Of a stretch of DNA of 32,000 bases, positions 4,453 to 20,204 are shown in pieces (position 1 is the first letter of the stretch; every line of letters starts with the position of its first letter). The stretch comes from Candidatus Saccharimonadota bacterium (lineage in GTDB: Archaea; Nanohalarchaeota; Nanosalinia; Nanosalinales; Nanosalinaceae): positions 420,001 to 452,000 of the forward strand of contig NZ_CP107255.1 of assembly GCF_029232205.1 (NCBI RefSeq), given 5' to 3'. Under the pieces are notes generated by a model that worked only from the letters and a program-made list of their open reading frames with translations, searched no databases and was not told where the DNA came from. A program made the position numbers and the translations under genes.

Positions 4453-5631
4453 ATGCACTTCGGCGACACACACCTGGGCAGAAAACAACCCAGCCAGATA
4501 GCCGAAAAACGCGTAGAATCAACAATCAAGGCCTTCCAATTTCTAATCGACAAAGCCATAGAAAAAGACGTAGACATCATAATACACGCAGGCGACGTAT
4601 TCGACACAGTATACCCATGGCACACAGTAATCGAACAGGCCCGCGAAACGCTGGAAAAACTGGAAAAAGCAGAAATCCCAATGTACATGATCCGTGGCAA
4701 CCACGACAGAAGCTACGGCCACGGAAGAAAACTCAAAGGCCTCGCCATCGAACACCTCGAAAACCAGTACGTAAAACTAATCGATCCTTCTCCTGAAGAA
4801 TTTGGAAAACCAGCAATACAATTCAAAGGCCTGAACATCTACGGCCTCGGATACCACTCCAGTAAAACCCGGGAAATACTGGAAGACTTCTCTCCAGGAA
4901 AAGGCACCAATATCCTGCTGATGCACGACTTCGTAGAGGGAGTTACAAGAACCTACTCCAACGACTGCACAGAAGCAGAAAAACTGGCCGATAAGAACCT
5001 GGACTACGTTGCTATAGGCCACGACCACCAGCCAAACACCTGGAAAGAAATCAACGGCACAGTTTTCTCAGCAACAGGAGGAACCGTAGACTACGACTTC
5101 AACTCCACAGAGTTCGGAAACCACTACAACATAATAGAAGCCGGCCCTGAAGGCGTACAACACGAGGAAACAGGAGAAATACCGCAGACACTTGAATTAA
5201 AGAAGATCAGAGTGCCGGTGGAAGAGGCCCGCGTCGAACCAACCATAGGAAGAATACAGGAACTTCAGGGAGAAAGAATAGCAGTCAAAGTCATGGTAAA
5301 GGGAGAAACAGAAAAAGAACCTGGCGAGATACCTGTCCAGGAGATAGAGGCCCGAGCAAGAGAGATAGAAAAAGTTGAAATGGTTGAAGTAGTCCTCGAC
5401 CTCCAGATAAAAGGATATGAAGATACAGAATCCGGAGAGGCCTTCAGTGTCGACGAATTTCTCGAAAAAGAACTTGAAAATCCCGAGGAATTCCGGGAGC
5501 TGCATGAAAAAACATCCTCCATGCTGGCAGACGACGAAAACCTCACCTCATCAGGAATCAACCTGAAAAAGGACGCCAGAAAAAAGCTAAGGCAGCAAGT
5601 CAAACAGAAAATCTTCGGTGGTAGTGAGTGA
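4453..5631 (+). CDS. mre11: Mre11-type DNA double-strand-break repair nuclease (calcineurin-like phosphoesterase)
   Basis: The phosphoesterase motifs appear in order: FGDTHLG, HAGDVFD, IRGNHD, LLMHDF, IGHDHQ. The stop overlaps the GTG start of rad50. Confidence 0.85.
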   Translation: MHFGDTHLGRKQPSQIAEKRVESTIKAFQFLIDKAIEKDVDIIIHAGDVFDTVYPWHTVIEQARETLEKLEKAEIPMYMIRGNHDRSYGHGRKLKGLAIEHLENQYVKLIDPSPEEFGKPAIQFKGLNIYGLGYHSSKTREILEDFSPGKGTNILLMHDFVEGVTRTYSNDCTEAEKLADKNLDYVAIGHDHQPNTWKEINGTVFSATGGTVDYDFNSTEFGNHYNIIEAGPEGVQHEETGEIPQTLELKKIRVPVEEARVEPTIGRIQELQGERIAVKVMVKGETEKEPGEIPVQEIEARAREIEKVEMVEVVLDLQIKGYEDTESGEAFSVDEFLEKELENPEEFRELHEKTSSMLADDENLTSSGINLKKDARKKLRQQVKQKIFGGSE

Positions 5632-8738: not shown

Positions 8739-9054
8739 AAACCCTGTAAAAACCAGGCCTATGACCCTTAGCCTTCCGATCAGAAACACTACGATTACGG
8801 CCCAGAGAAGTCTCCTGATACCTCTTCTGAGGTTTTCGAACCCACTCCCACGACTCAAACTCTCCTTCATTCCGGGCCTCATCCAAGATGTTAACAATAT
8901 TCTGAGAAATACTCCGAAGATCACCCCGAATCTCCACAGCCTCACTGTTAGGGATTTCTCTGTGAAAAAGCTCAATTTTGAGAACAGGCCCAGACTGTTT
9001 CCTCACAGCCTTTACTCCATCGATGTCTCTGAGTTTGTCGATTAGTTGTTTCAT
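8725..9054 (-). CDS. Hypothetical protein, last gene of the minus-strand array
   Basis: 109-aa ORF whose ATG overlaps the stop of the YgjP-like gene (ATGA). The competing plus-strand ORF 8704-9045 is low-complexity. No motif recognised. Confidence 0.4.
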   Translation of the reverse strand: MKQLIDKLRDIDGVKAVRKQSGPVLKIELFHREIPNSEAVEIRGDLRSISQNIVNILDEARNEGEFESWEWVRKPQKRYQETSLGRNRSVSDRKAKGHRPGFYRVSIQV

Positions 9055-9779
9055 TCTGTATTTTTCTCGTTTTCCAATATTAGGGATTTGTCAAATACTA
9101 GTTGAGCACTATTTTTAGCGAGCCACTTGTTCGATCTCTGGTACTTTGGAAGTATTCCACGTACACGAGACCAGAATTTTTCACTGTGGTTTCTTTCTTC
9201 TAAATGTACTAATTCATGTACTACAACATATTCTAGGACGTGTTGTGGTGCTAGTACTAGCCGCCAATTGAAGTTTAAATTTGATTTACTGGAGCAACTT
9301 CCCCATTTAGTCTGCTGATCTCTTATGAATATCTCTTCATGTTCCCCGTCTACTTTATCCTTATGATCCTCTATTTTTTGTTCTATCACTTCTCTTGCTC
9401 TTTCCCTAAGTGCCTTTTCAAGTTGGTCTTTCAAAGAAGTCTGTTCTACCAAATGTTCTGCTAAGATAATTTTATCATTAATCTGATTCTTCCTAGCGGT
9501 TTGGACAGTTATCTCCTTCTCTTCACCTAAAATAGTGATTTTACTGCCGTTTGACAAGTTTCTATCTGGAATTTTTCTCTTAAAACGCAAAAATTCTTTC
9601 CGTTTCTTAGCAACCCAGCTTTCTTTCTGTTTTAGTAGTTCTTCAGCATCTAAATCTTGATCTTCGGGTATAACTACTGTAAAATCACCTAACTTATGAT
9701 CGATTCTTGGCTTGGATGCTTCAGAACTGTTGCGTATACTATAGTTTATTTTCAGGCCATCAATTTTAGCTTCCATCAT
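9051..9779 (-). CDS. YgjP-like (DUF45/M48-like) HExxH metal-dependent hydrolase
   Basis: WGSCSSKSNLNFNWRLVLAPQHVLEYVVVHELVHLEERNHSEKFW is the family hallmark, including HELVH. It lies directly downstream of hsdR, a common association. Confidence 0.8.
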   Translation of the reverse strand: MMEAKIDGLKINYSIRNSSEASKPRIDHKLGDFTVVIPEDQDLDAEELLKQKESWVAKKRKEFLRFKRKIPDRNLSNGSKITILGEEKEITVQTARKNQINDKIILAEHLVEQTSLKDQLEKALRERAREVIEQKIEDHKDKVDGEHEEIFIRDQQTKWGSCSSKSNLNFNWRLVLAPQHVLEYVVVHELVHLEERNHSEKFWSRVRGILPKYQRSNKWLAKNSAQLVFDKSLILENEKNTE

Positions 9780-9780
9780 A

Positions 9781-12700
9781 CTACCGATTCTTAATTACAA
9801 GATCTACGGTTTTAGACAGAAACTCATCTTTGTTCTCCTGAGCAAGCACATCAACAAAATCATGAGCCACGAGCTCCTGGATAATTCTACGTCTTATACT
9901 CTTACGTAAAGTTGACTCCACAGAATTGAAGTCTAATGATTCTGTACTCTCAGATATTGATTCTGCTATTTCCTCTGCGCCCTCCGGTGTGAAGTATTCT
10001 GAGTAACGATCTGTAAGCAATTGGTATATAGAGAAGGAAACATCATCCATTTTCTTCCTCTGTTGTTCTGATTCTAATTCTTCTATATCCTTTCTAACTT
10101 CCTCGTACTCCTGTATTGCCTGTTCGGCATTAATATCTTCGTCCTTCCAGTCCTGGATTATTTGTTTAACCCTCTCACTTAATGATTCATAAGCAGGATT
10201 ACTCTGAGCCTTCACCTCAACATTTTCTTCAAGGACTGCACCCTCTGCTGCGGCCTTGTATTCTGGTTCCTGGTCTTCTACATGTTTTACTTCAGGAGTA
10301 CCTATCTCATAGTAAACGTCTTCTTCCTCTGTTTCTATCTCATTAACCTCGAGATTTTCTTCAAGAATTTCTCTTGTCTTTTCTCTCACCTCTCCTGAAA
10401 TTTTGCCTTCTTCAGGACGTGCACCTTTCTCCATCTCCTTGTACTCGAAGTAGACTTGATTAATAATTTTCCATTTTGCTATGACGTTGTCTTCTCCCAG
10501 TTTTTCGTGAGGTTGAACAGATTCGTAGATATCTTCGGCTTCAGAAAACATTTCCAAGAATCTAGAGGCCTTACTGTCATTCTTCCTTAGAGAAGCAACC
10601 GCTGACTGAATTGTCTCAGGATCATTTCTAAACCTAATCTCAAAGAGGTTTAGAATCTCTTCTTGAAGCTCTAAAAATTCTTCTGCAAGTTCATCCGTCT
10701 CCTTTAGGCCATCTTTGATAATATTGAATTCTTCATACTGTAGTGCTTCTTCTGGGTTGTCAAATACACCTGCGAAGTCGACGATTTCTCCATTCTTTTT
10801 ACCTGTTCTAGGTCTGTTGGTTCTAGCAATGGCTTGTAGAAGGTTATGGTTGTTCAAGTTTTTGTCGAGATATAACGTCTTTAGTACGGGGGCGTCAAAG
10901 CCGGTAAGAAGTTTGTCGCATACTACAAGAAGCTGAGGGTCTTTCTTATCATCTTTAAAGTTCTCTATAATATTTTTCTCATCTTCTTCTGATCTGATGT
11001 ACTTCTGCATGAAATCATCGTCTTTCCCATCTCCTGAGATAATAGCCTCAACTTCATCGGAGTCGCGGTACTTTCTTAGCTCATCGCAGTAAATGGCAGC
11101 AGCCCTACGTGAAGGTGTAACTACCATCCCTTTCAGGTTGATGGGCTCGACTTTGCTCTCAAAGTGATCTAGAATTTTCCGGACAACTTTCTCCACTCTA
11201 GGCCTCAGTTCTGCCAGTTCAGATTCGTTTACATATTCTCTCAAGATTTTTTTCTGCTTAGGTAAAGGAAGATCTCCGAATTCTCCTTCAAACTCTTGGT
11301 CGAGTATTTCTTCAGGGATCTCTCCCCAGTCCACATTCATCTTAGTAAAGGTAACTTCCGTAATTACTCCATCTCTTTGACCTTCTTCAATTGAGTAACG
11401 GTGCAGATAATCCTCTCCTGTAGGTGAGAACTCCTTAAACGTGTTCCTACCATCTTTACTGTTTTCAACTACGGGGGTTCCGGTGAAACCAAAGTAGAAA
11501 GCATCGGGCAACGCATTTCTTAGTTTACTCCCTAACTTCCCCTCAGTAAATCTATGGGCCTCATCCACGTAGACAGCGGTCTCCCCCTCTGGGTCAGCAT
11601 CTATATGCGAGTTCACATTTTCAAATTTCTGGATCGTAGTAAGTACCAACTGATTCTTATTCTCTTCTAGTATATTCTCAAGATCGTTAATTGTGTCTGC
11701 TACTTCAAATATAGGAAAACCAATATCATGCAAATCATCAGACATTTGGCCTTCAAGTTTAGTCCTATCCACCACCAGTATCTGTTGCCTGTCTTTCACG
11801 CTAGGAGACTTCTTTGCTTTATGAGCTGCAAACATCATAGTAAATGATTTTCCTGAACCTTGAGTATGCCAAATAAGGCCTTTACGTGGCTCTCCTTTTC
11901 TCATTCTCTCAATCATTCTGTTAGATGCCTGGAACTGCATATATCTCGGTACTATTTTACCTTCATCAGAGAAGAAGACATAGTACCTGAATAGATCCAT
12001 GAGCTTGTCTGGCTGAAACAGATCTGTAATCGCATTTTTGACTTCGTAGTCTCCTTCCTTAAAACTCTCTGATCTCCAAGGGAAGTAAAACTTCTGAGGA
12101 GCGCCTGTTGCAGCGTAGCGAAACCTCTGTCCATCGCTAACTACGTTGAAAAGGTTAGGTACAAACATTCTTTGAGCGTTTTCCTGATACTCGTCCATTT
12201 CATTCATCGCTTTCTGAATGGTTGAACTAGGGCCTACGTTCTTCAACTCGAACTGCACAATCGGTATTCCGTTGACTAGAAGGGTTATATCCGGCCTAAC
12301 AGACTTCTTTCTCTCAAACTGAAATTGGTTTATTGCGACAAACTCGTTTTTCTCCATCAGTTCTTCTAGGTTGCTCTCATCTTCGGGAAGATGAATAAGA
12401 TCTATGTATTCGCTTTTCTCCTCACCGTCTTCATCTACGACGGTATGAGGTACGCCGTCGCGCATCTTTTCATAAAACTCTTCATTGGCGTCAAGCAGAT
12501 TTTCCGCGCCCAGGTTCCGCTTTAAGTTATCAACTATTTCCTGTGCATCATCATTGGAAATGTTCTCGTTAAGTTCGACAATTTTCTGCTTCAATAAGTT
12601 CCAGTAAACTGCTTCATCGCGGTCTCTATCGTACTTATCATCTAGCTGGCTGCCACCCCACTCGCCATTATTCTTAGGGTCTCCGTAAACATCCCAGCCG

Positions 12701-12783
12701 ACATCTTCCAAGTAATCTAGAACTTTTGCCTCAACGCCGCCCTCAGTAGTTTGTCTCAAGTTTCCAGCACCTTTAAGATTCAT
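9781..12783 (-). CDS. hsdR: Type I restriction enzyme, R (endonuclease/translocase) subunit
   Basis: 1000-aa ORF. SF2 helicase motifs are WHTQGSGKS (I), VYVDEAHRF (II, DEAH), FGFTGTP (III) and QAIARTNR (VI). The N-terminal nuclease region and a long helical C-terminus are present. Confidence 0.93.
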   Translation of the reverse strand: MNLKGAGNLRQTTEGGVEAKVLDYLEDVGWDVYGDPKNNGEWGGSQLDDKYDRDRDEAVYWNLLKQKIVELNENISNDDAQEIVDNLKRNLGAENLLDANEEFYEKMRDGVPHTVVDEDGEEKSEYIDLIHLPEDESNLEELMEKNEFVAINQFQFERKKSVRPDITLLVNGIPIVQFELKNVGPSSTIQKAMNEMDEYQENAQRMFVPNLFNVVSDGQRFRYAATGAPQKFYFPWRSESFKEGDYEVKNAITDLFQPDKLMDLFRYYVFFSDEGKIVPRYMQFQASNRMIERMRKGEPRKGLIWHTQGSGKSFTMMFAAHKAKKSPSVKDRQQILVVDRTKLEGQMSDDLHDIGFPIFEVADTINDLENILEENKNQLVLTTIQKFENVNSHIDADPEGETAVYVDEAHRFTEGKLGSKLRNALPDAFYFGFTGTPVVENSKDGRNTFKEFSPTGEDYLHRYSIEEGQRDGVITEVTFTKMNVDWGEIPEEILDQEFEGEFGDLPLPKQKKILREYVNESELAELRPRVEKVVRKILDHFESKVEPINLKGMVVTPSRRAAAIYCDELRKYRDSDEVEAIISGDGKDDDFMQKYIRSEEDEKNIIENFKDDKKDPQLLVVCDKLLTGFDAPVLKTLYLDKNLNNHNLLQAIARTNRPRTGKKNGEIVDFAGVFDNPEEALQYEEFNIIKDGLKETDELAEEFLELQEEILNLFEIRFRNDPETIQSAVASLRKNDSKASRFLEMFSEAEDIYESVQPHEKLGEDNVIAKWKIINQVYFEYKEMEKGARPEEGKISGEVREKTREILEENLEVNEIETEEEDVYYEIGTPEVKHVEDQEPEYKAAAEGAVLEENVEVKAQSNPAYESLSERVKQIIQDWKDEDINAEQAIQEYEEVRKDIEELESEQQRKKMDDVSFSIYQLLTDRYSEYFTPEGAEEIAESISESTESLDFNSVESTLRKSIRRRIIQELVAHDFVDVLAQENKDEFLSKTVDLVIKNR

Positions 12784-13195
12784 TTAGATTCAATTCTTTT
12801 CTGGTTTTCTCAAGAAATCTCTTCGAGGCCTTCAAACACCTATCGGCTTCAGTCAGAGATACCTTGGCATTCCTGTACTGGATCTCGGTCTTCTTATCAA
12901 CAACCCACTTCCTGACAGAATCAAGATTGGACTTGAAATCCTGCGAGATCATCCTTTCCTCATACATCTCCTGCAACTCATTGGCAGTAGTAGAATGATC
13001 CTTATTGGTATGGCCTCTATTCTCCAACATTAAAGCATCATTACACTTAATCATCGCCATAATACAGTTCACAACTACAGGATTCCAGATATCGGAGTCT
13101 TGCTCAAGCAAGTTCTCCCGAACCTTCTCCGCACCATAAATATAGGCCTCCGCCTCTTTAATCGACTTACTTGACCTTTGCACGAAGAGAATCAC
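12773..13195 (-). CDS. HEPN-domain protein (putative toxin partner of the upstream MNT)
   Basis: 140-aa helical ORF immediately downstream of, and overlapping, the nucleotidyltransferase gene. Candidate R-x6-H motif is RGHTNKDH. The start is GTG at 13195 or 13183. The stop overlaps the hsdR ATG by 11 nt. Confidence 0.6.
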   Translation of the reverse strand: MILFVQRSSKSIKEAEAYIYGAEKVRENLLEQDSDIWNPVVVNCIMAMIKCNDALMLENRGHTNKDHSTTANELQEMYEERMISQDFKSNLDSVRKWVVDKKTEIQYRNAKVSLTEADRCLKASKRFLEKTRKELNLNES

Positions 13196-13784
13196 CCCAT
13201 AAAACTTCTGAATCTCTCACAACATTTTGCTCAAACCGTTTCTTGTTTTCATAGTTTTCAGTAAACTCGGATTCGGTTTCTACCACAGGAACAATTTCTT
13301 TATCCGACTTACTCCTTGATTTGTTAATTATCTGGTTCTTGACATAATCTGTGTCAACACCGTCCTCAACCACAAATAAAATATCAATATCTGAATTAGA
13401 GTCGGCAGTACCACGCGCAACACTACCGAAAAGAACCACACTCACAATCTTTTCTTCCATCTCATCCGAATCCATCAGCTCATGGACAAAACTATCAGCT
13501 TCCTTAAAAAGTGGCGTTACCTCTACCTGGAAAATAGCGTCAACGGCATGGAAATAACGAGAATCCTGATTAAACTCGACCAAGTAGGAACTACCTTTCT
13601 TCCTAATCCTCACCAAATCCAAATCCTCCAACTCACGGATAAAATCCCTGACAGCAGGATAAGAACCATCAACACTCTCAGCAACCTCATTAATCGTAAA
13701 CATCTGATCAGGCCTATCCCTCAAAAACTCCAACACCTGACCACGATACTCCTTACCCAACAAATCCACAAACCTCTCTGCCAT
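13167..13784 (-). CDS. wHTH-fused minimal nucleotidyltransferase (MNT, putative antitoxin)
   Basis: The N-terminal winged-helix region reads VLEFLRDRPDQMFTINEVAESV...LVRIRKKG. The NTase motif is LFGSVARGTADSNSDIDILFVV. The ATG at 13784 is preferred over the ORF-track TTG at 13805. Confidence 0.75.
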   Translation of the reverse strand: MAERFVDLLGKEYRGQVLEFLRDRPDQMFTINEVAESVDGSYPAVRDFIRELEDLDLVRIRKKGSSYLVEFNQDSRYFHAVDAIFQVEVTPLFKEADSFVHELMDSDEMEEKIVSVVLFGSVARGTADSNSDIDILFVVEDGVDTDYVKNQIINKSRSKSDKEIVPVVETESEFTENYENKKRFEQNVVRDSEVLWGDSLRAKVK

Positions 13785-13803
13785 ATTACAACCTCTTTGA
13801 TCC

Positions 13804-13842
13804 AAAACTTAAATGTTTAAGTTTTTCCTTAAACGATTAAGG
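13804..13842. promoter_or_regulatory. Two adjacent inverted repeats (candidate operator) upstream of the MNT-HEPN pair
   Basis: IR1 is AAAACTTAAA-tg-TTTAAGTTTT (13804-13825). IR2 is CCTTAA-acga-TTAAGG (13827-13842). Together they give four CTTAA/TTAAG half-sites. They sit in the only real intergenic gap (13785-13876) of the 11-kb array. An AATAAAAT TATA-like box lies at 13855-13862 on the minus strand. Confidence 0.4.
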
Positions 13843-13876
13843 ATTTTCTTGAAGATTTTATTCTGGTTTTTAATTT

Positions 13877-14950
13877 TCAAAGTATCGGCCTCTTGACAAG
13901 TTTCATCGGTTTTTGAGAATGTTCTCTGAAAGATATAGTTAGGTAGTCCTCGTCCTTGATTTCCGCTCTCATGCTTTTGGCTAGAACCTCTCTAATCTGT
14001 GAATCGTCTTCTATAAGATACTCGTTTTCATCAGCTCTATCATCGTTTTCGAGAGCACTAATTACTGGCTTGACAAGGTTATCGACATCCAGAGCGTTAT
14101 CTTTGTCCGTGTAATGATAGACAATCGCAACATCAATTTCACTGTCTTTGTAATCCTCAAAATTTTCGTTCTTCATCCAGTTTGCCAAGTCAGTCCGCAA
14201 GTCCTCAATATTCTCAAAATTTTCTCTCCCACGGATAACCTTGTTGAAACCACCATGATAACCAACTGAATCAATCAAAACATCGCCCTCCTGATTCGCC
14301 CAGTGAGACATATCCTTCAAAACCTCAATCTTGTCGTTATTTATCACGTAGACTCCGGCCTTATTCTTCAGGTAATGGAAATTCTCATTCACTCTGAATA
14401 AAGTTCCATAGTACTCGTCCTTCTCAGTCTCAATAAATACGGCACGCTCGTCCTTCTTCATCTGGCTATATAGATCAGCGGTAGCAGTCGAAAAAATCAC
14501 AAAACACGTTAAACCAAAGATACCGCCCCAAACACCGAAACTGAAAAATCCAAGAGAAGCAGTAAAACTCAGCACAGTAGAGAAAAACAAAATTTTCCAA
14601 ATCTCCCAATCCTCATCGATCAAGTCGTTATCCGTCTCCCTGTAGTAATCAAGTTTTCTACTCATCCAGATAATCGCAGGCCCCAAAATCAGAAATGAAC
14701 CACCAAATAAAACCTGCATAACCGAGTCACTAAACCTCAATCTTAGAGGTACGCTCAACAGAAAACTCATAGCCAGAGGAATAACCATGAAGAGAATAAC
14801 AAAAGCCACACCATGACCATACCTGTCAGTATCATCCTTCAAATCAAGATCCCTATCAGAAATCTTCTTGCCATAAAAATAAACTGCAGCAGCAACCAAA
14901 GCACCAATAAACGAAAAATTAAGAACCAACCGAACCTCAGGAACAGCCAT
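13877..14950 (-). CDS. Membrane protein: about 5 N-terminal TM helices, linker domain, C-terminal RusA-like endonuclease domain
   Basis: 357-aa ORF with hydrophobic helices within residues 7-156. The C-terminal 135 aa are paralogous to ORF 15345-15857 and carry DVDNLVKPVISAL...YLIEDDSQI (RusA-type D-x-D-N-L-x-K...DD). A GGGAGG SD-like element lies 10 nt upstream. The gap to the upstream gene is 0 nt. Confidence 0.7.
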   Translation of the reverse strand: MAVPEVRLVLNFSFIGALVAAAVYFYGKKISDRDLDLKDDTDRYGHGVAFVILFMVIPLAMSFLLSVPLRLRFSDSVMQVLFGGSFLILGPAIIWMSRKLDYYRETDNDLIDEDWEIWKILFFSTVLSFTASLGFFSFGVWGGIFGLTCFVIFSTATADLYSQMKKDERAVFIETEKDEYYGTLFRVNENFHYLKNKAGVYVINNDKIEVLKDMSHWANQEGDVLIDSVGYHGGFNKVIRGRENFENIEDLRTDLANWMKNENFEDYKDSEIDVAIVYHYTDKDNALDVDNLVKPVISALENDDRADENEYLIEDDSQIREVLAKSMRAEIKDEDYLTISFREHSQKPMKLVKRPIL

Positions 14951-15352
14951 TCAATACCTGCCTCCCGTCGGAGTATTCATCTCATATTTTGCAGTCCAGT
15001 AAAACAGGCCTGTCGCAACATAAATCAAACCTGTGAAAATCCCCTGAATAGGAGTCTGGAGCACTACAGCAGTCAAAGGCATCAAAGAATTCGCTATCGA
15101 GATAAAAATCGCCTTAATAGCAGGACCAGCAGCCTCAACAGAACCAGAAGTCAACGCACCCCAGTTCAGCAAAAGAGAAAAACCGGTATTCAAAGCCAAA
15201 GCAAGCCCTGCACCAGTACGGTAAATATTCCTCCACTGTCCTGGTCCTGCCAACAAGTTACCTTTCGCATAATTCTTAGCCTGAGGACTAAATAGGCCTT
15301 TATGCGATTGAGTTCTCCTTCTCCGAGGTCTCTTCTTCCTTCTTCTACTCAT
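14951..15352 (-). CDS. Small membrane protein (about 3 TM) with polybasic N-terminus
   Basis: The ATG at 15352 gives MSRRRKKRPRRRRTQSHKG..., followed by Gly/Ala-rich hydrophobic segments. The ORF-track start at 15373 is a TTG. It overlaps the upstream gene by 8 nt and abuts the downstream gene. Confidence 0.55.
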   Translation of the reverse strand: MSRRRKKRPRRRRTQSHKGLFSPQAKNYAKGNLLAGPGQWRNIYRTGAGLALALNTGFSLLLNWGALTSGSVEAAGPAIKAIFISIANSLMPLTAVVLQTPIQGIFTGLIYVATGLFYWTAKYEMNTPTGGRY

Positions 15353-15857
15353 CCAGATAACCCCGTCCAGCAACCATCTTCATAGGTTTTTCCGGATCAT
15401 GTTCTCTGAAAGAAATCGTAATCCTGCCATGAGCCTCCCTCCAATCACCATTTTCTGTCTTATCTATTTTCACATCTTTCTGAATTTGATCGGTCTCACG
15501 TTTGATTTTCTTCGTCAAAATTCGGATAATCTGTGAATCGTCTTCAACAAGATAAGGTTCATCTTCCTCACTATCCTCTAAAACCGTAACACCGCTACTA
15601 CCGTCAAGAGCGGAAACAATAGGCTTCACCAAATTATCAATATCCACAGCATCGTCTTCCCTCCAATACTCATACACAATTGCCAAATCAATTTCCTTAT
15701 CCCTCAAATCATCAAAAACCTCATTATTCAACCACATACCTAAATCTCTCCGAATCCTCTCAATATTTTCCCCAAGTCCATCATTTCCTAAACGCTTGTT
15801 GAAACCACCCATCCTACCAACAGCATCCTCCAAATTCAACCCCTCAGCATGAGACAC
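15345..15857 (-). CDS. RusA-like (Holliday-junction-resolvase-family) endonuclease-fold protein, soluble
   Basis: 170-aa ORF with a GTG start. Motif DIDNLVKPIVSAL is residues D72-L84 (D72-K78 at 15624-15644). YLVEDDSQI gives D106/D107. These match the RusA catalytic core pattern (E. coli RusA RDLDNLQKAAFDAL...LDDAQV). It is paralogous to the C-terminus of 13877-14950. Confidence 0.7.
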   Translation of the reverse strand: MSHAEGLNLEDAVGRMGGFNKRLGNDGLGENIERIRRDLGMWLNNEVFDDLRDKEIDLAIVYEYWREDDAVDIDNLVKPIVSALDGSSGVTVLEDSEEDEPYLVEDDSQIIRILTKKIKRETDQIQKDVKIDKTENGDWREAHGRITISFREHDPEKPMKMVAGRGYLDE

Positions 15858-15862
15858 TAGCC

Positions 15863-17221
15863 CTACACCTCCACAACCTCATCCAACACCTCAACACCCT
15901 CAGAAGTACGAACACTCCCAGTCAACAAATCCTGCATAAGGCCTTTCTTCAGAGATTGGAGCTGCTCCTTCTCTTCCTTGTAAGTTCTAATTTGGTTCTC
16001 ATAAGTTGATAGGATTTCAGCTATTCTTTTCTGTTCCTTCAAAGGAGGTATTGGCATCTCAAATTTCCTTAAATCGCTGGTATTCAGGTGTTTGACTGTA
16101 GTTCCAACTGAAACAGATTTTATTAGCGATCTACCAATTTCAGAGTTCATGAAATAAGCCACATACTCCGGATAAACTTCCTTCTCATCGAATCTAGTGA
16201 TTATCAGGGCATGACAATTGGCGTTGTCATATCTCTCAGGAACTATAGCGGATTCTCCTATATGTCCTGACTGAACTGTCAGCATATTTCCCTCATAAAT
16301 CCTAGTATCCTGATTATCTTCATGGAACTCCTCCGAAATCTCTACCATTTCATCTTCAGAATCTATTTTGTTTGGTCTAACGTTGAAGCTCTGAAGATAA
16401 GGAATTCCACCTTCCTCATAATAGGGAGTAGCAGTTCCTACGAACCCATTCCGTATCTCAGTTGAAACTTCCAACATCTGTTTTTTCTCCCAGTTCTCTG
16501 GAAGCTCAAATGTTTTTGGCCCTATTCGGACTTCTTTTAGCTCTCTTCCATCTATCCCCTCGTTCATTAGGTCCTGCATCAGGCCTTTCTTGACCCGCTG
16601 GGTTTGCTCGATGATTTCCTCCGTCTTACTGATCGCCTGATCCACATTATACAGAACCGACGCAATCCGGCGTTGCTCGGATTTTGGAGGGTGAGGAATT
16701 TCGTGTAGTTTGAGAATATTTTTCCCGATGTTCGCCTGTGTGGTCTCCCTTTTCTTGCTAGCAAGTCTGTCTTGCTCGAAGTCAAGAGCGTAACGGGCAA
16801 ACTGGATATTTGTGTCTTTTGGATCCCAGAGGCCTATGATTCCCTGATTTGTGGAAACTGGCGCTGTGACAATCCCGGTTTCGCCGAGAGTTCCGTAGAT
16901 TGTCAGAAGGATTGTTCCAGGATCATAGATTCGAGTTTTTCCGTCTTCTATTGCTTGCTGAGTTGTGTATTCCTTAGCATCTGAGATTCCATCTCCTTGC
17001 TGTCTGTTGAGGTCTTCAATCTTGACGAATGGAATATCTCCACCTTCCCAATATTTGTCTTTTCCTCTTTTCGGGGTGCCTCCGCTTTTAATTCCGTCAA
17101 ATATGTCGCCAATTTTTTCTGAGGTCCAGCCTTCTGTCTCTTTAGTCTCTTCTCCATCTAATGAGCTTGAGCTTTCTACAGAGTCAGAAATATCTCCGAG
17201 TGAGGCCTGGTTACTCATCAT
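15863..17221 (-). CDS. hsdS: Type I restriction-modification specificity subunit
   Basis: It has two target-recognition domains separated and followed by the conserved helical repeat (RVKKGLMQDLMNEGI and LKKGLMQDLLTGSVR). The N-terminal WTSEKIGDIF...GGTPKRG...YW..GDIPFVK pattern is present. ATGs at 17221 and 17218 are preferred over the GTG at 17227. Confidence 0.9.
   Translation of the reverse strand: MMSNQASLGDISDSVESSSSLDGEETKETEGWTSEKIGDIFDGIKSGGTPKRGKDKYWEGGDIPFVKIEDLNRQQGDGISDAKEYTTQQAIEDGKTRIYDPGTILLTIYGTLGETGIVTAPVSTNQGIIGLWDPKDTNIQFARYALDFEQDRLASKKRETTQANIGKNILKLHEIPHPPKSEQRRIASVLYNVDQAISKTEEIIEQTQRVKKGLMQDLMNEGIDGRELKEVRIGPKTFELPENWEKKQMLEVSTEIRNGFVGTATPYYEEGGIPYLQSFNVRPNKIDSEDEMVEISEEFHEDNQDTRIYEGNMLTVQSGHIGESAIVPERYDNANCHALIITRFDEKEVYPEYVAYFMNSEIGRSLIKSVSVGTTVKHLNTSDLRKFEMPIPPLKEQKRIAEILSTYENQIRTYKEEKEQLQSLKKGLMQDLLTGSVRTSEGVEVLDEVVEV
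15866..15872 (-). promoter_or_regulatory. Shine-Dalgarno site for the RusA-like gene, embedded in the hsdS 3' end
   Basis: A perfect GGAGGTG on the minus strand lies 8 nt before the GTG at 15857. It is the same heptamer as the csp-like gene's SD. Confidence 0.5.
15930..15949. repeat. hsdS conserved-region direct repeat, copy 2 (C-terminal)
   Basis: TCCTGCATAAGGCCTTTCTT matches 16572-16591 at 19 of 20 positions. Both copies encode KKGLMQD on the minus strand. Confidence 0.8.
16572..16591. repeat. hsdS conserved-region direct repeat, copy 1 (central)
   Basis: TCCTGCATCAGGCCTTTCTT lies 642 bp from the other copy. The two copies bracket the AT-rich second target-recognition domain. Confidence 0.8.
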
Positions 17222-17783
17222 TCTCACCTTCTTTCTCTTCTAGGACTTTTTCAAGAAGTTCTTTGATGTCTTGTATTTCTTTCTTCATCTCTGTAATTTC
17301 TTTGCTTGTTTTCTCATTTTCCTTTATCCTATCTCTCTGAAGATCGAGTAGTTCGATAACTGCCCCATGATATTTTTGTTCAGCCACATTTTCTCTACGT
17401 TCAGATTCAAGTTTTTCCTCTTCAACTTCCTCTTTCATCTTCTCTATTTTGGCTTTTTCTTCGGTAGAGCTTTTTTCTAGTTCTACTTGTTCTTTCCAGG
17501 CCTTCAGGTTACGAAGTTTCCTGTTGATTTGATCTTCGTATCTATTCTGTCTTTGTTTACTATTTAGACCAATCGCTCCTGTAACTACATCAGGATAGAG
17601 ATTATCTTTTTTCTCTTCTCCATCCGAGAAGGCAGTTTTCGCAAAGTTATCTAATCTTGTTTCCATCTCCTTTTTCTCTTGCTTACCTTTCTCATAAGAA
17701 AGTTCTAGAAGGCCCTCTGCCTGCTTTATGAACTCATCTATCTTTTCTTCTGCTTTTTCAGGATCTATTTGAAGCTTACTCAT
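17211..17783 (-). CDS. Hypothetical coiled-coil protein inserted between hsdM and hsdS
   Basis: 190-aa E/K-rich ORF. Its ATG overlaps the hsdM stop by 8 nt, and its stop overlaps the hsdS start by about 11 nt. No enzymatic motif recognised. Confidence 0.6.
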   Translation of the reverse strand: MSKLQIDPEKAEEKIDEFIKQAEGLLELSYEKGKQEKKEMETRLDNFAKTAFSDGEEKKDNLYPDVVTGAIGLNSKQRQNRYEDQINRKLRNLKAWKEQVELEKSSTEEKAKIEKMKEEVEEEKLESERRENVAEQKYHGAVIELLDLQRDRIKENEKTSKEITEMKKEIQDIKELLEKVLEEKEGENDE

Positions 17784-19260
17784 AGTTGAGGGCCTCCATG
17801 TGTTCTTGCATCTGGTTTTCGATTTCTTCTCTTTCTGATTGGAGTTCTTTCAGTTTCTCCAGTTCTTCGGCGACTTCTATGTTTTCTTCGGGTTGGGTGG
17901 TGTCGACGTAGAGGGCGATGTTGAGGTTGTAGTCGTTTTCGCGGATTTCTTCGAGGTCGACGACTCGGGAGACTCTTTCCTCGGTTTCCCAGTTCCTGTA
18001 TTTTTCCACGATTTCTTTGATTCCGTCTTCTGTGAGTTTGTTCTGGTTGCTGAGTTCTTCGTAGAAGTTTTCGTCGGCTGCGTGGATGAACTGGACTTGT
18101 CCTTCTCTTTCTTCTGGTTTGTCTTTGTTGACTATGAGGATTCCTGATGGGATTGAGTTGTTCTGGAATAGGTTTTCTGGTAGGCCTATGACTGCTTCTA
18201 CCATGTCGTTTTCTAGCATTGGTTCTCTGAACTTGCTCTCATGTTTTCTGAAGAGGACTCCGTGTGGTATGACGCAGGCCATTTTTCCTTCTTCGTTCAG
18301 TGATTTGATCATGTGCTGGATGAATGCGTAGTCGGCTCTGTCTGCTCGTGCCATTCCCCAGTCGAAACGGTTGTATTTGTCGTCCTGGCATGCGTCTTTC
18401 TGCCAGTCAGCTGAGAACGGAGGATTGGCTAGTACATAGTCAAACTTCTCTAGTTTGCCGTTTTCCGTGAACTGTGGGTTGGCGAGTGAGTCTTCCCGCG
18501 TGATTTCTCCGTCTAGGTCGTGTAGGAATAGGTTCATTCGTGCGATTGGTGCGATTCCAGGGTTGATTTCCTGGCCTTTCAGCAATAGATCTTTCTTGGG
18601 GTCGCCGATTTCTCTGTAGTGTTCGGCCATTTCTACGAGCATTCCTGCTGATCCAACTGTTGGATCGTAGATCTTGATGGTTCCGTCTCCGTTCTCAGGG
18701 TTCAGTACGTCGGCCATTAGCTGGACCATCTCCTGTGGTGTGAAGAACTGTCCGCCATCCTTTCCTTCTGATTCAGCAAAGTCCCGAACGAGATCCATGT
18801 AGGCTTCTCCTAGAATATCTGGTTTTACTCTTTGCAGAGACATGTTTTTCGTGTTCAGGTGTTCGAGCATACGGTGAAGAGTATCGTGATCGATTCCGTC
18901 CGCATTCACGAAGTTGACTCTGAAGATATTCTCAAGTTTCTCTGGGTTTTCGGATTCTAGTGCGTCAAATGCTTCGTTTAGGAACTGATCTACGTTTTCT
19001 GTCTGTTCTAGAGCTTTTTCGTATCTGTAGTCTTCCGGGATTTGGAAGTCGTGGAAGGCTTGGTCTTTTGCTAGTTCTTCGTCTCCTGTTTCTTCCAGTG
19101 CTTCTTCGTACCGGTCCTGGTATGTGTCATCTATTGCTTTATAGAAGACGACGGGTAGTATGTATGTTTTGTAGTCTGTAGGGTCTACTCTGTCTCTGAT
19201 GATGTCTGCGCATTTGAAAAGATGGTCGCGTAGTTCTTCTTCGGTGATTTCTTTTGCCAT
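17776..19260 (-). CDS. hsdM: Type I restriction-modification N6-adenine DNA methyltransferase subunit
   Basis: Motifs GGQFFTPQEMVQLM, IYDPTVGSAGML (AdoMet motif I) and VLANPPFS (motif IV, NPPF) are present, along with the N-terminal HsdM helical domain. Confidence 0.93.
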   Translation of the reverse strand: MAKEITEEELRDHLFKCADIIRDRVDPTDYKTYILPVVFYKAIDDTYQDRYEEALEETGDEELAKDQAFHDFQIPEDYRYEKALEQTENVDQFLNEAFDALESENPEKLENIFRVNFVNADGIDHDTLHRMLEHLNTKNMSLQRVKPDILGEAYMDLVRDFAESEGKDGGQFFTPQEMVQLMADVLNPENGDGTIKIYDPTVGSAGMLVEMAEHYREIGDPKKDLLLKGQEINPGIAPIARMNLFLHDLDGEITREDSLANPQFTENGKLEKFDYVLANPPFSADWQKDACQDDKYNRFDWGMARADRADYAFIQHMIKSLNEEGKMACVIPHGVLFRKHESKFREPMLENDMVEAVIGLPENLFQNNSIPSGILIVNKDKPEEREGQVQFIHAADENFYEELSNQNKLTEDGIKEIVEKYRNWETEERVSRVVDLEEIRENDYNLNIALYVDTTQPEENIEVAEELEKLKELQSEREEIENQMQEHMEALNYE

Positions 19261-19799
19261 TAGTTTTGAACCTCGTCTAGTATTTTTTCAGCTTCTTCTT
19301 CAATTTTTGAGTTGTCAATAAATGCGTTCGATCTGTCTGTTATTAGTCCTAACATTTTTGCTTCTCCTTCTGTCTCTCTGAGAACTCTGTCGGTTTCTTT
19401 AAATACTGAATTCAACGATTCAAGATCTTCTCTGTTCTTTGCTACCCGTAAAACTTCGATAATTGTGTCTTGAACTCTCTGAGAGGTGACTTGTTCTGAG
19501 ATATTTTTCTTTACGAAAGTCCTCAACTCGTTTAGCTGGTTGGGTTCCTCGCTTCTTCGTACGAGAAATGTCTCTATGTGTTCGCGATAAAGTTGTTGTA
19601 TTTTCTCTAAATTGATATCTAGTTCTTTCTCTCCTTCTACTAGTTTCTTATCTCGTAGTTTCTTGACATTGTTTGAGACAGCGCCTTTACTGAGAGAGGT
19701 GTTCTCGACAAGCTCACTCTGTCTCTGAGGGGAATTATGGGCCAATGCGGAAAGTATTTCAAGTTGGCCTTTGCCAGTATTGTCTGTGAGTATTCTCAC
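19260..19799 (-). CDS. Winged-helix (MarR/ArsR-like) transcriptional regulator, first gene of the R-M array
   Basis: LEILSALAHNSPQRQSELVENTSLSKGAVSNNVKKLRDKKLVE is a typical wHTH, followed by a helical C-terminal half. The start is GTG. The stop overlaps the hsdM ATG (TAATG). Confidence 0.7.
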   Translation of the reverse strand: MRILTDNTGKGQLEILSALAHNSPQRQSELVENTSLSKGAVSNNVKKLRDKKLVEGEKELDINLEKIQQLYREHIETFLVRRSEEPNQLNELRTFVKKNISEQVTSQRVQDTIIEVLRVAKNREDLESLNSVFKETDRVLRETEGEAKMLGLITDRSNAFIDNSKIEEEAEKILDEVQN

Positions 19800-19883
19800 A
19801 TCTAGGTTTTTGTGTCCTGACCTTTAACATTCTTTCGATAACTAGAAATCACTTCTGTAAAACGTTTAGCAATACTGACTTTG

Positions 19884-20204
19884 TTAATTTTCTATTTTTT
19901 TATCTAGTTTCCAGCCTTTGAGGGCTTCTTTGGGCCTCATGTTGATTTTGTGGTATGTGTTGTAGAGTTGGATGGCTTTGTGGGCTTTTTCTGTGTTGAA
20001 GCCTTTTACGTTGTGTTCTGCTGTGAATTTTATTACTTGTTTGAGTGTTGAGATGTCGTTTACTGTGCGTACGTGTTTGTTGCCGTGTTTGAAGACTAGT
20101 TCTACTTCTTCGTCTACTTTCTGGCTGTCCTGTGCTGAGAGCCTGAGGTTCATGTTGTTGCCGTGGTTGTTCCATTTTCCGAATATTACTGCTTCTGTAT
20201 CCAT
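19884..20204 (-). CDS. Hypothetical protein
   Basis: 106-aa ORF and the most protein-like of three overlapping frames. No motif recognised. Confidence 0.45.
   Translation of the reverse strand: MDTEAVIFGKWNNHGNNMNLRLSAQDSQKVDEEVELVFKHGNKHVRTVNDISTLKQVIKFTAEHNVKGFNTEKAHKAIQLYNTYHKINMRPKEALKGWKLDKKIEN

What the first reader, a model, noticed from the sequence alone, without database searches (positions are those of the whole stretch)
13877..15857. Three-gene cassette inside a type I R-M operon: two paralogous RusA-like nuclease domains (one membrane-anchored) plus a polybasic membrane protein
Seen in sequence: ORF 15345-15857 (170 aa) and the last ~135 aa of ORF 13877-14950 (357 aa) are clear paralogs. 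Shared blocks are GGFNK, EID[LV]AIVY.Y, D[IV]DNLVKP..SAL, YL[VI]EDDSQI, ISFREH and KPMK[ML]V. Their D-x-D-N-L-x-K...D-D pattern and spacing match the catalytic core of the RusA Holliday-junction resolvase family (E. coli RusA reads RDLDNLQKAAFDAL...LDDAQV). The longer paralog places about 5 TM helices and a ~65-aa linker domain ahead of the nuclease-like domain. A 3-TM protein is encoded between the two. Packing is tight: a perfect GGAGGTG SD sits inside the hsdS 3' end, followed by a 5-nt gap, then an 8-nt overlap, then a 0-nt gap. Established knowledge: RusA-family enzymes are structure-specific endonucleases, mostly phage or prophage borne. The space between hsdS and hsdR is a known landing site for defence passengers such as anticodon nucleases, Abi genes and TA pairs. 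Inference: this is a candidate membrane-associated defence or abortive-infection module that senses or cuts branched viral replication or recombination intermediates. I know of no described defence system built on RusA-like domains, nor of a RusA domain fused to a TM anchor. A provirus remnant (resolvase plus holin-like protein) is the main alternative.
Basis: partly seen in the sequence, partly recalled or inferred. Interest (0 to 1): 0.85.

Follow-up and report, generated by a model that had tools for sequence, protein, structure and literature searches.

The report
Membrane-tethered RusA-like nucleases in restriction operon
A salt-loving nano-archaeon carries, inside its type I restriction-modification operon, two copies of a RusA-type DNA-junction-cutting enzyme, one of them fused to a membrane anchor and an Sm-like ring domain; relatives of this enzyme sit next to restriction and other defence genes rather than in viruses, which makes it a plausible but untested new defence-linked nuclease.

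Summary
ORF170 (15345-15857, minus strand) and the last ~140 aa of ORF357 (13877-14950) are paralogs (BLASTP 1e-34, 44% identity). Both belong to the RusA fold. Foldseek's top PDB hits for both models are E. coli RusA. Of 75 profile-detected relatives, 68 match Pfam RusA. The residues matching RusA D70, D72, K76 and D91 are invariant.

The middle gene is a real, conserved small membrane protein with a conserved polybasic N-terminus.

The source is Candidatus Nanohalovita haloferacivicina. All ten related nanohaloarchaeal loci place these genes between hsdS and hsdR, but in varying combinations, so this is not a fixed three-gene cassette. A wider family of ~150-aa stand-alone relatives lies next to type IIG, type I and type ISP R-M genes and other defence genes (14 of 45 loci, against 2 of 26 canonical RusA loci). 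None was found in viral contigs, phage genomes or plasmids. PADLOC and the literature search gave nothing.

Verdict: a new architecture and a new genomic context for a known nuclease family. A defence link is likely; the mechanism is untested.

The parts
15345..15857 (-). ORF170: soluble RusA-like protein (170 aa, GTG start, pI 4.6). Putative catalytic residues are D72, D74, K78 and D107.
   Evidence: Identical to NCBI hypothetical protein P0001. AlphaFold2 model has pLDDT 67.5. Foldseek top 5 PDB hits are E. coli RusA, E~5e-4, probability 1.0. All top BFVD hits are RusA-like resolvases. Residues are invariant in the family.
14951..15352 (-). Small membrane protein, 133 aa from the ATG at 15352 (listed as 140 aa from a TTG at 15373). 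It has a polybasic N-terminus (SRRRKKRPRRRR) followed by 2-3 hydrophobic segments carrying a conserved MP...L.TP..G motif.
   Evidence: Homologs P0088-P0095. The polybasic run and the SPQAKNYAKGN segment are conserved in P0090-P0092, whereas NCBI annotates only 100 aa (P0089). It is also found after hsdS in L005, L009, L086 and L087.
14459..14950 (-). ORF357 residues 1-164: five transmembrane helices. Predicted topology is N-terminus outside and C-terminus inside.
   Evidence: Kyte-Doolittle segments and K/R counts per loop. AlphaFold2 helices. The topology is an inference from the positive-inside rule.
14312..14455 (-). ORF357 residues 166-213: Sm-like (LSm/Hfq-fold) five-stranded beta-barrel.
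   Evidence: Foldseek matches Hfq chains at probability 1.0, TMt 0.60-0.68, rmsd 1-2.6 A over ~50 residues. The family profile hits archaeal Lsm 6tfl at E=2.8e-4, followed by other Sm proteins. Three of 12 members match Pfam LSM weakly.
13877..14311 (-). ORF357 residues 214-357: RusA-like domain, paralog of ORF170. Putative catalytic residues are D288, D290, K294 and D316.
   Evidence: BLASTP 1e-34 to ORF170. Pfam RusA 14.8 bits, E=0.045, below the gathering score. Foldseek hits 1q8r and 2h8c at E=1e-4, TMt 0.65.
15863..17227 (-). hsdS, the type I specificity subunit.
   Evidence: Pfam Methylase_S 7e-48, two TRDs.
17776..19260 (-). hsdM, the type I methyltransferase.
   Evidence: Pfam N6_Mtase 7e-92 and HsdM_N 4e-22.
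9781..12783 (-). hsdR, the type I restriction/translocase subunit, with an intact PD...ELK nuclease motif.
   Evidence: Pfam HSDR_N 1.5e-32, SWI2_SNF2 3e-52 and ResIII. The motif RPDITLLVNGIPIVQFELK is visible in the translation.
13167..13805 (-). wHTH plus nucleotidyltransferase (MNT-type), forming a probable TA/defence pair with the next gene.
   Evidence: Pfam NTP_transf_2 1.3e-10. PADLOC candidate system PDC-M05A 1.2e-22.
12773..13195 (-). 140-aa HEPN-like partner of the MNT gene.
   Evidence: No direct Pfam hit. Its homolog in L009 (phmmer 3.6e-46) carries a weak precomputed PF05168 HEPN hit.
9051..9779 (-). YgjP-like metallopeptidase downstream of hsdR, conserved in all related operons whose contigs reach this position.
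   Evidence: Pfam YgjP-like 1.2e-48. Present in L001, L002, L004, L006 and L086.
17211..17783 (-). 190-aa acidic coiled-coil ORF between hsdM and hsdS; function unknown.
   Evidence: No family match. L001 has a Shedu SduA_C gene in the same position.

Best explanation
The locus encodes a membrane-associated nuclease module of the RusA family. It is embedded in, and co-expressed with, a type I restriction-modification operon of a nanohaloarchaeon.

Shown:
- ORF357 has five TM helices, an Sm-like barrel and a RusA-fold domain.
- ORF170 is a soluble paralog of that domain.
- Both keep the Asp-Asp-Lys-Asp set that forms the RusA active site.
- A small polybasic membrane protein is encoded between them.
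- The three genes occur in shifting combinations, always between hsdS and hsdR.
- Stand-alone relatives sit beside R-M and other defence genes, not in viruses.

Inferred:
- The RusA domains face the cytoplasm and are active Mg2+-dependent DNA endonucleases with a preference for particular DNA structures.
- RusA works as a dimer, so the tethered domain probably pairs either with the soluble paralog (a heterodimer) or with a neighbouring tethered copy.
- The Sm-like domain probably drives ring-type oligomerisation under the membrane, as in MscS-type channels, and may also bind nucleic acid.
- The module adds a second nuclease activity, confined to the membrane, to the R-M system. It would cut foreign DNA as it enters, or cut branched or looped DNA produced during restriction or viral replication.
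For: Fold and active site:
- Paralogy is strong.
- Foldseek places E. coli RusA first for both models.
- The viral-structure hits are all RusA resolvases.
- A profile of the domain finds 84 representatives. Of 75 scanned, 68 match Pfam RusA, and several score above the gathering threshold.
- The alignment to 1q8r pairs DxDNxxK with D70-L-D72-N-L-Q-K76 and DDxQ with D90-D91-A-Q93.
- These residues are invariant in the close family and at least 90% conserved across 75 sequences.

Architecture:
- TM helices and the Sm-like domain are supported.

Genomic context:
- All ten nanohaloarchaeal loci (window, L001, L002, L004-L009, L086) place the genes between hsdS and hsdR. Start/stop overlaps with hsdS or hsdR occur in L007 and L008.
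- Stand-alone relatives lie directly downstream of type IIG Eco57I/MmeI-like genes (L012, L021, L027, L028, L032, L036) or next to type I genes (L017-L019, L025). Others lie in islands with type ISP, SIR2, NACHT-Cap4, PIN-TPR-GreABC, NERD, DUF3800, Schlafen and AIPR genes.
- An R-M gene lies within 5 kb in 14 of 45 such loci, against 2 of 26 canonical RusA loci.

Absence from viruses and plasmids:
- No match in IMG/VR, in phage genomes or in plasmids.
Against: - No experiment or activity data exist.
- The window proteins themselves fall below Pfam's RusA threshold (14.8 bits against 22.8; ORF170 has no hit).
- A profile of the close family alone did not retrieve RusA from PDB sequences.
- Both structure models have only moderate confidence (pLDDT 62-68; pTM 0.38 for the full-length protein).
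- One TM-LSm-RusA-like homolog (P0076) has lost the catalytic motifs, so nuclease activity is not universally kept.
- The three genes are separable. L086 has only the small membrane protein and L008 only a soluble RusA, so they may not form one machine.
- HsdR keeps its own nuclease motif, so the R-M system does not obviously need a second nuclease.
- Some stand-alone relatives lie in non-defence surroundings: glycosyltransferases in L052 and flavodoxin in L037.
- Topology, heterodimerisation and ring formation are all inferred.
Confidence: 0.5

Rival explanations
1. Self-repair accessory. The RusA-like proteins are true Holliday-junction resolvases carried with R-M genes. They would let the host complete recombinational repair of breaks that its own restriction enzyme makes, lowering the cost of acquiring or losing a mobile R-M system in lineages with reduced genomes.
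For: - The RusA active site is fully conserved.
- The genes are tightly coupled to R-M genes of three types that all cut away from their sites (types I, IIG and ISP).
- The host is a DPANN archaeon with a ~1 Mb genome.
- From established knowledge, recombination and junction-processing functions are needed to survive self-restriction in E. coli.
Against: - It explains neither the membrane anchor, nor the Sm-like domain, nor the small membrane protein, nor the need for two paralogs.
- Relatives also lie beside non-R-M defence genes such as SIR2, NACHT, NERD and PIN-TPR.
- Whether the genome lacks the normal archaeal resolvase Hjc could not be checked from this window.
Confidence: 0.2
2. Independent passenger defence system. 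The genes merely use the hsdS-hsdR gap as a landing site, as TgvAB or PrrC do. They would act on their own, for example as a membrane-located nuclease that cuts DNA on entry, or as an abortive-infection effector.
For: - The same gap holds variable TA pairs (RHH/ParE, PIN, MNT/HEPN) in related loci, so it is a hot spot.
- T1RM-embedded defence genes are documented (PMC11411939).
- A membrane-bound defence nuclease that cuts injected phage DNA is documented (SNIPE, PMC13190303).
- Stand-alone relatives occur in islands without an adjacent R-M gene.
Against: - The TM-fused form was found only in type I operons (7 of 7 loci).
- Start/stop overlaps with hsdS, hsdR or type IIG genes (L007, L008, L012) argue for co-translation with R-M rather than autonomy.
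- A 150-aa nuclease with no sensor is an unusual stand-alone system.
- There is no PADLOC match.
Confidence: 0.22
3. Provirus or mobile-element remnant: a viral RusA resolvase plus a holin-like membrane protein left behind next to an R-M system.
For: - RusA is typically phage- or prophage-borne (established knowledge; the BFVD hits are all phage RusA).
- Some stand-alone relatives lie next to integrases or recombinases (L011, L040, L049).
Against: - No viral structural, replication or lysis genes lie in the window island or in any of the ten nanohaloarchaeal loci.
- The arrangement is conserved across divergent operons (30-85% identity).
- There are no relatives in IMG/VR or in phage genomes.
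- Identity to viral RusA structures is only 7-18%.
Confidence: 0.04
4. A membrane channel or sensor protein of MscS-like layout (TM helices, Sm-like beta domain, alpha/beta domain), in which the RusA-like domain is only a structural cytoplasmic module and not a nuclease.
For: - After RusA, Foldseek lists YnaI and MscS (E 1.5e-3 to 1e-2, probability 0.7-0.8) over about 280-370 columns.
- The domain order is the same.
- One homolog (P0076) has lost the catalytic residues.
Against: - TM-scores to MscS/YnaI are about 0.13-0.19 with rmsd above 20 A.
- There is no Pfam MS_channel hit even at E<=10.
- Catalytic residues are invariant in 11 of 12 TM-fused members and in the soluble paralogs.
Confidence: 0.04

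Closest known systems
E. coli RusA Holliday-junction resolvase (Pfam PF05866; PDB 1q8r, 2h8c, 2h8e) and phage RusA-like resolvases
   Same: The alpha/beta fold is the same (Foldseek top hits). The catalytic signature is the same: DxDNLxK ... DDxQ, matching D70, D72, K76 and D91. The domain size is similar.
   Different: - Sequence identity is only 12-16%, and the window proteins score below Pfam's threshold.
- There is an extra conserved C-terminal motif, ISFR.H..KPM.
- One copy is fused to five TM helices and an Sm-like domain.
- The genes lie in R-M operons and defence islands rather than in phages.
- Junction resolution has not been tested.
Genes embedded in type I R-M operons (for example TgvAB in Vibrio cholerae VPI-2, PMC11411939; PrrC anticodon nuclease, from my own knowledge)
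   Same: They occupy the gap between hsd genes and are co-directional with the hsd genes, within a defence context.
   Different: The protein families are unrelated (GmrSD-type and anticodon nuclease, against RusA). Here the genes overlap hsd genes in some loci, and the TM-fused form is confined to type I operons.
SNIPE membrane-bound defence nuclease (PMC13190303)
   Same: The concept is shared: a nuclease held at the cytoplasmic membrane, which could tell incoming DNA from self DNA by its location.
   Different: The nuclease and accessory domains are unrelated. There is no evidence here for action during genome entry. The host is archaeal. SNIPE is a single protein, not part of an R-M operon.
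MscS/YnaI mechanosensitive channels
   Same: The domain order is the same: TM helices, an Sm-like beta domain, then an alpha/beta cytoplasmic domain. YnaI also has five TM helices.
   Different: No sequence-family match was found. The structural match is weak (TM-score below 0.2). The C-terminal domain here is RusA-like with a nuclease active site.
Sm/LSm/Hfq proteins
   Same: The 45-50-aa barrel matches in fold and weakly in sequence (6tfl E=2.8e-4; Hfq TMt 0.6-0.68).
   Different: Here the barrel is an internal domain of a membrane protein, not a free RNA-binding ring. Ring formation and RNA binding are untested.

Membership tests
RusA endodeoxyribonuclease family (PF05866) | Sequence match to the family profile at or above the curated score | tested here: inconclusive
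   ORF357 scores 14.8 bits against a cutoff of 22.8, and ORF170 has no hit. PHROG_140 RusA-like matches ORF170 at E=0.02. However, 68 of 75 relatives found with the domain profile match PF05866, and several exceed the cutoff at 24-32 bits.
RusA endodeoxyribonuclease family (PF05866) | RusA alpha/beta fold | tested here: met
   Foldseek PDB top hits for both paralogs are 1q8r, 2h8c and 2h8e, at E from 1e-4 to 7e-4, probability 1.0 and TMt 0.55-0.66. Model confidence is moderate (pLDDT 62-68).
RusA endodeoxyribonuclease family (PF05866) | Catalytic acidic residues and lysine (E. coli D70, D72, D91, K76) | tested here: met
   These align to D72, D74, D107 and K78 of ORF170 and to D288, D290, D316 and K294 of ORF357. 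They are invariant in the close family. The exception is homolog P0076.
RusA endodeoxyribonuclease family (PF05866) | Dimeric enzyme that resolves Holliday junctions | not testable with these tools
   This needs biochemistry.
Type I restriction-modification operon | hsdM, hsdS and hsdR genes present and intact | tested here: met
   Pfam N6_Mtase/HsdM_N, Methylase_S, and HSDR_N/SWI2_SNF2/ResIII. All are uninterrupted ORFs.
Known anti-phage defence systems (PADLOC-DB v2) | Match of any of the three proteins to a defence-system model | tested here: not met
   No hit at E<=1 for ORF170, ORF140 or ORF357. Only the neighbouring MNT gene matches a candidate system (PDC-M05A).
Provirus resolvase/holin module | Neighbouring viral replication, structural or lysis genes; relatives in viral genomes | tested here: not met
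   Neighbours are R-M, TA and peptidase genes. There are no relatives in IMG/VR or in phage genomes.
MscS-like channel | Match to the MS_channel family domains | tested here: not met
   No Pfam MS_channel hit. Foldseek similarity to YnaI/MscS is only weak, with TM-score below 0.2.
Sm/LSm domain | Sm-fold five-stranded barrel with the Sm1/Sm2-like sequence pattern | tested here: met
   The profile hits Lsm 6tfl at E=2.8e-4 and other Sm proteins at E about 1. Foldseek matches Hfq at probability 1.0 and rmsd 1-2.6 A. Pfam LSM is weak, in 3 of 12 members.

The most novel reading that the evidence does not exclude
RusA-fold proteins would be an unrecognised class of accessory nucleases for restriction enzymes that translocate or loop DNA (types I, ISP and IIG). 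In nanohaloarchaea this nuclease would be tethered under the membrane by a five-TM plus Sm-like ring. Each tethered domain would be completed by a soluble paralog to form the dimeric active enzyme, and the complex would destroy incoming or branched foreign DNA at the cell envelope.
Probability: 0.15. Interest if true: 0.85.

Novelty: new variant of a known kind. Interest (0 to 1): 0.62.

Why it matters
RusA is a textbook phage-borne junction resolvase. If a RusA branch is really a defence or R-M accessory nuclease, that would add a new nuclease fold to prokaryotic immunity. It would also give a new example of a membrane-confined nuclease, in archaea, where defence systems are poorly explored. 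The 5TM-LSm-RusA fusion is an architecture I could not find described. The family is small and has clear catalytic residues, so it can be tested directly by mutagenesis and in vitro cleavage assays. For DPANN symbionts, which exchange material with a host cell across their membrane, a nuclease at the membrane could bear on how they control incoming DNA.

Tried and rejected
Searches that gave little or nothing:
- A profile of the close family (A2) against PDB sequences did not retrieve RusA. The broader profile (A3) did, weakly.
- The search for related loci with the 75-sequence alignment failed because no stretch was conserved enough.
- With A2, the genome collection returned only the already known MAG contig, and the viral collection returned nothing.
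- The afdb50 structure library was not available.
- NCBIfam gave nothing useful.

Hypotheses rejected:
- I tested whether the polybasic N-terminus of the middle ORF was an artefact of translating a purine-rich spacer, given that NCBI starts the gene 33 codons later. I rejected this because homologs conserve it.
- I asked whether the RusA-like protein replaces a missing HsdR nuclease. I rejected this because HsdR keeps its HSDR_N domain and its PD...ELK motif.
- An MscS relationship is not supported by sequence.

Other limits:
- A rough NJ tree did not cleanly separate soluble from TM-fused RusA domains, so the order of duplication and fusion is unresolved.
- The taxonomic range of the stand-alone subfamily was not determined. 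One contig carries a TBP gene, so that contig at least is archaeal.
Full report
**1. The observation**

On the minus strand the window carries a co-directional gene row. In order it reads:
- wHTH (19260-19799)
- hsdM (17776-19260)
- a 190-aa coiled-coil ORF (17211-17783)
- hsdS (15863-17227)
- ORF170 (15345-15857)
- a small membrane-protein ORF (14951-15352/15373)
- ORF357 (13877-14950)
- an MNT-type nucleotidyltransferase (13167-13805)
- a 140-aa HEPN-like ORF (12773-13195)
- hsdR (9781-12783)
- a YgjP-like peptidase (9051-9779)

ORF170 aligns to ORF357 residues 214-352 at BLASTP E=1e-34 and 44% identity. Exact-match database hits identify the source as Candidatus Nanohalovita haloferacivicina, a DPANN nanohaloarchaeon with a ~1.05 Mb genome.

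**2. Is it RusA?**

Direct family scans are only suggestive:
- Pfam RusA matches ORF357 at 14.8 bits, E=0.045, below the 22.8-bit cutoff.
- PHROG_140 "RusA-like" matches ORF170 at E=0.02.

Three further lines settle the question.

(a) Transitive homology. A profile of the domain from ten family members, run against 1.84 billion representative proteins, found 84 relatives. Of 75 scanned, 68 match PF05866. Several exceed Pfam's own threshold, for example P0063 at 31.6 bits and P0042 at 29.8 bits.

(b) Structure. For the AlphaFold2 models of ORF170 (pLDDT 67.5) and ORF357 (pLDDT 62), Foldseek ranks the E. coli RusA crystal structures first. E-values run from 1e-4 to 7e-4, probability is 1.0, and TM-score on the target is 0.55-0.66. 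Against viral predicted structures, the named hits are almost all RusA-like resolvases, at 7-18% identity.

(c) Active site. The broad-family profile aligns to 1q8r so that DvDNiaK pairs with D70-L-D72-N-L-Q-K76, and edDsQ pairs with L-D90-D91-A-Q93. hhalign of the close family against the RusA sequence gives the same register (probability only 22% against a single sequence). These residues are invariant in the close family and at least 90% conserved across 75 sequences. That D70, D72, D91 and K76 are the catalytic residues of RusA is established knowledge, stated from memory.

One TM-fused homolog, P0076, has lost these motifs.

**3. Architecture of ORF357 and the middle gene**

Hydropathy analysis and the model agree on five TM helices, at about residues 8-27, 46-68, 76-96, 119-139 and 143-163. 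Lys/Arg counts favour the N-terminus outside and the C-terminus inside, which would put the RusA domain in the cytoplasm. That topology is an inference.

- Foldseek matches many Hfq chains at probability 1.0 and rmsd 1-2.6 A.
- A profile of the region hits archaeal Lsm 6tfl at E=2.8e-4, followed by eukaryotic Sm proteins.

After RusA, Foldseek also lists the MscS-family channels YnaI and MscS. These share the order TM helices, Sm-like barrel, alpha/beta domain. However, the TM-scores are below 0.2 and there is no Pfam MS_channel hit. I treat this as an architectural analogy only.

The middle ORF is real. Eight homologs exist, and three of them keep both the polybasic run and the SPQAKNYAKGN segment upstream of the start that NCBI annotates. 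The 133-aa form starting at ATG 15352 is therefore the likely product.

**4. Context of the close family**

Every locus I could fetch for the TM-LSm-RusA protein or its soluble nanohaloarchaeal paralogs is a type I R-M operon, and the genes sit between hsdS and hsdR. The content of that interval varies:

| Locus | Content between hsdS and hsdR (where the contig reaches them) |
|---|---|
| Window | RusA, small-TM, TM-LSm-RusA, MNT, HEPN |
| L001 | RusA, TM-LSm-RusA, RHH pair |
| L002 | a TM-LSm-only protein, TM-LSm-RusA, RHH, PIN |
| L004 | a divergent small-TM ORF, TM-LSm-RusA, RHH/ParE |
| L005 | small-TM, TM-LSm-RusA |
| L006 | TM-LSm-RusA, RHH |
| L007 | TM-LSm-RusA overlapping the hsdS stop |
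| L008 | soluble RusA alone, overlapping both hsdS and hsdR |
| L009 | soluble RusA, small-TM, MNT, HEPN |
| L086/L087 | small-TM alone, AbrB-like, PIN |

So the "three-gene cassette" is really a set of three modules that combine freely. A RusA domain and a membrane component co-occur in most loci. They may be fused (TM-LSm-RusA) or split (L009).

**5. The wider subfamily**

About 150-aa stand-alone proteins form a coherent RusA branch, with the consensus LDLAIV...QDVDNIAKVVLDAL...YLFEDDSQIVRLLVYK...ISFRxHDPxKQM. A metagenome scan gave 42 strong loci. Their neighbours include:
- type IIG Eco57I/MmeI-like enzymes lying immediately upstream, with a 2-nt gap or a 4-nt overlap (L012/13, L021, L027, L028, L032, L036);
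- type I hsdM/hsdS (L017-L019, L025);
- a type ISP enzyme together with SIR2_2/DUF4020 (L044);
- NACHT plus a Cap4 nuclease (L020);
- PIN-TPR-GreABC (L048);
- NERD (L042, L045, L046);
- DUF3800 (L043, L050);
- Schlafen AlbA_2 plus an M48 peptidase (L017);
- AIPR (L012);
- integrases, recombinases and IS elements.

An R-M methylase or specificity gene lies within 5 kb in 14 of 45 loci. Among the weak, canonical RusA-type loci from the same scan the figure is 2 of 26. The loci are not all independent, so this is indicative rather than a formal test.

None of the strong relatives is in IMG/VR. ORF170 has no tblastn match in 50,697 phage genomes. A stand-alone member has no match in 72,556 plasmids. 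Fusions to RNase H (P0049) and DUF7662 (P0045) exist.

**6. What is known**

- PADLOC has no model for any of the three proteins.
- Full-text searches combining RusA with defence, restriction-modification or transmembrane terms found no paper describing such a system. The library is limited, so this is absence of evidence only.
- The genome paper for this organism lists only a type III R-M system and no genomic islands (PMC10266531). It does not mention this locus.
- Documented parallels are defence genes embedded in type I R-M operons (TgvAB, PMC11411939) and a membrane-bound nuclease that cuts phage DNA on injection (SNIPE, PMC13190303). Both use unrelated protein families.

**7. Mechanism**

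My best reading, at confidence about 0.5, is a membrane-associated RusA-family endonuclease module that is functionally tied to the R-M system.

Shown: the fold, the conserved catalytic residues, the TM and Sm-like domains, the operon position, and the defence-rich neighbourhoods of relatives.

Inferred:
- The nuclease domain is cytoplasmic.
- The tethered domain pairs with the soluble paralog, because RusA acts as a dimer.
- The Sm-like domain assembles a ring.
- The target is foreign or branched DNA.

Rivals:
- A junction resolvase that repairs self-restriction damage (0.2). This does not explain the membrane parts.
- A fully independent passenger defence system (0.22). This is hard to separate from the best reading without experiments.
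- A provirus remnant (0.04). The context and the absence from viruses contradict it.
- An MscS-like membrane protein with a non-catalytic RusA-like domain (0.04). The invariant active-site residues contradict it.

**8. Verdict**

This is a new architecture (5TM-LSm-RusA) and a new genomic niche (R-M operons and defence islands) for a known nuclease family, that is, a new variant of a known kind. It is a credible candidate for experimental follow-up, but nothing here demonstrates a defence function.

Noticed in passing
window 4453-8015 (+): Mre11-like phosphoesterase (4453-5631) and Rad50-like SMC ATPase (5628-8015) lie just outside the R-M island. These are double-strand-break repair genes sitting next to a restriction system that carries junction-nuclease paralogs. 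This is probably coincidental.
   Followed up: no
window 9000-20000: GC content drops to 0.37-0.44 across the R-M gene row, against 0.44-0.49 in the flanks. That suggests a horizontally acquired island. The genome paper reports no genomic islands and only a type III R-M system for this organism (PMC10266531).
   Followed up: partly
window 14951-15373 (-): NCBI annotates the small membrane protein as 100 aa (P0089). The 33 upstream codons, including the RRRKKRPRRRR run, are conserved in homologs P0090-P0092, so the annotated start is probably too far downstream.
   Followed up: yes
window 17211-17783 (-); L001 1343-2302: A 190-aa acidic coiled-coil ORF with no family match sits between hsdM and hsdS. 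In the related operon L001 the same position holds a Shedu-type SduA_C nuclease gene. The hsdM-hsdS gap is therefore a second variable slot.
   Followed up: no
window 12773-13805 (-): The wHTH-MNT gene matches PADLOC candidate system PDC-M05A at 1.2e-22 and is paired with a HEPN-like gene. The same pair follows a soluble RusA-like gene and a small membrane protein in L009.
   Followed up: partly
L002 693-1349: A 218-aa protein made only of TM helices plus the Sm-like barrel, with no RusA domain, precedes the TM-LSm-RusA gene. This is a paralog of the N-terminal half, mirroring the soluble paralog of the C-terminal half seen in the window.
   Followed up: partly
P0076 (metagenomic homolog, 340 aa): This TM-LSm-RusA-like protein has degenerate DxDNLxK and DDxQ motifs (EKQNEVFR and VEDQV). 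It is a probably inactive member.
   Followed up: no
P0049, P0045 (stand-alone subfamily): N-terminal fusions of the RusA-like domain to RNase H (RVT_3/RNase_H) and to DUF7662. The RNase H fusion hints at action on RNA-DNA hybrids or replication intermediates.
   Followed up: no
L012 351-6836; L013: A compact row of AIPR, a type IIG MmeI-like enzyme, a RusA-like gene (4-nt overlap) and an AAA/NB-ARC-like ATPase. It looks like a composite defence operon.
   Followed up: no
window 9051-9779 (-) and L001, L002, L004, L006, L086: A YgjP-like metallopeptidase gene follows hsdR, often overlapping it, in every related operon whose contig reaches that far. L017 has an M48 peptidase in its type I locus.
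   Followed up: no
window 14813-15295 (+): A 160-aa ORF lies antisense to the small membrane-protein gene and the ORF357 start. No evidence supports it as a gene; it is most likely spurious.
   Followed up: no
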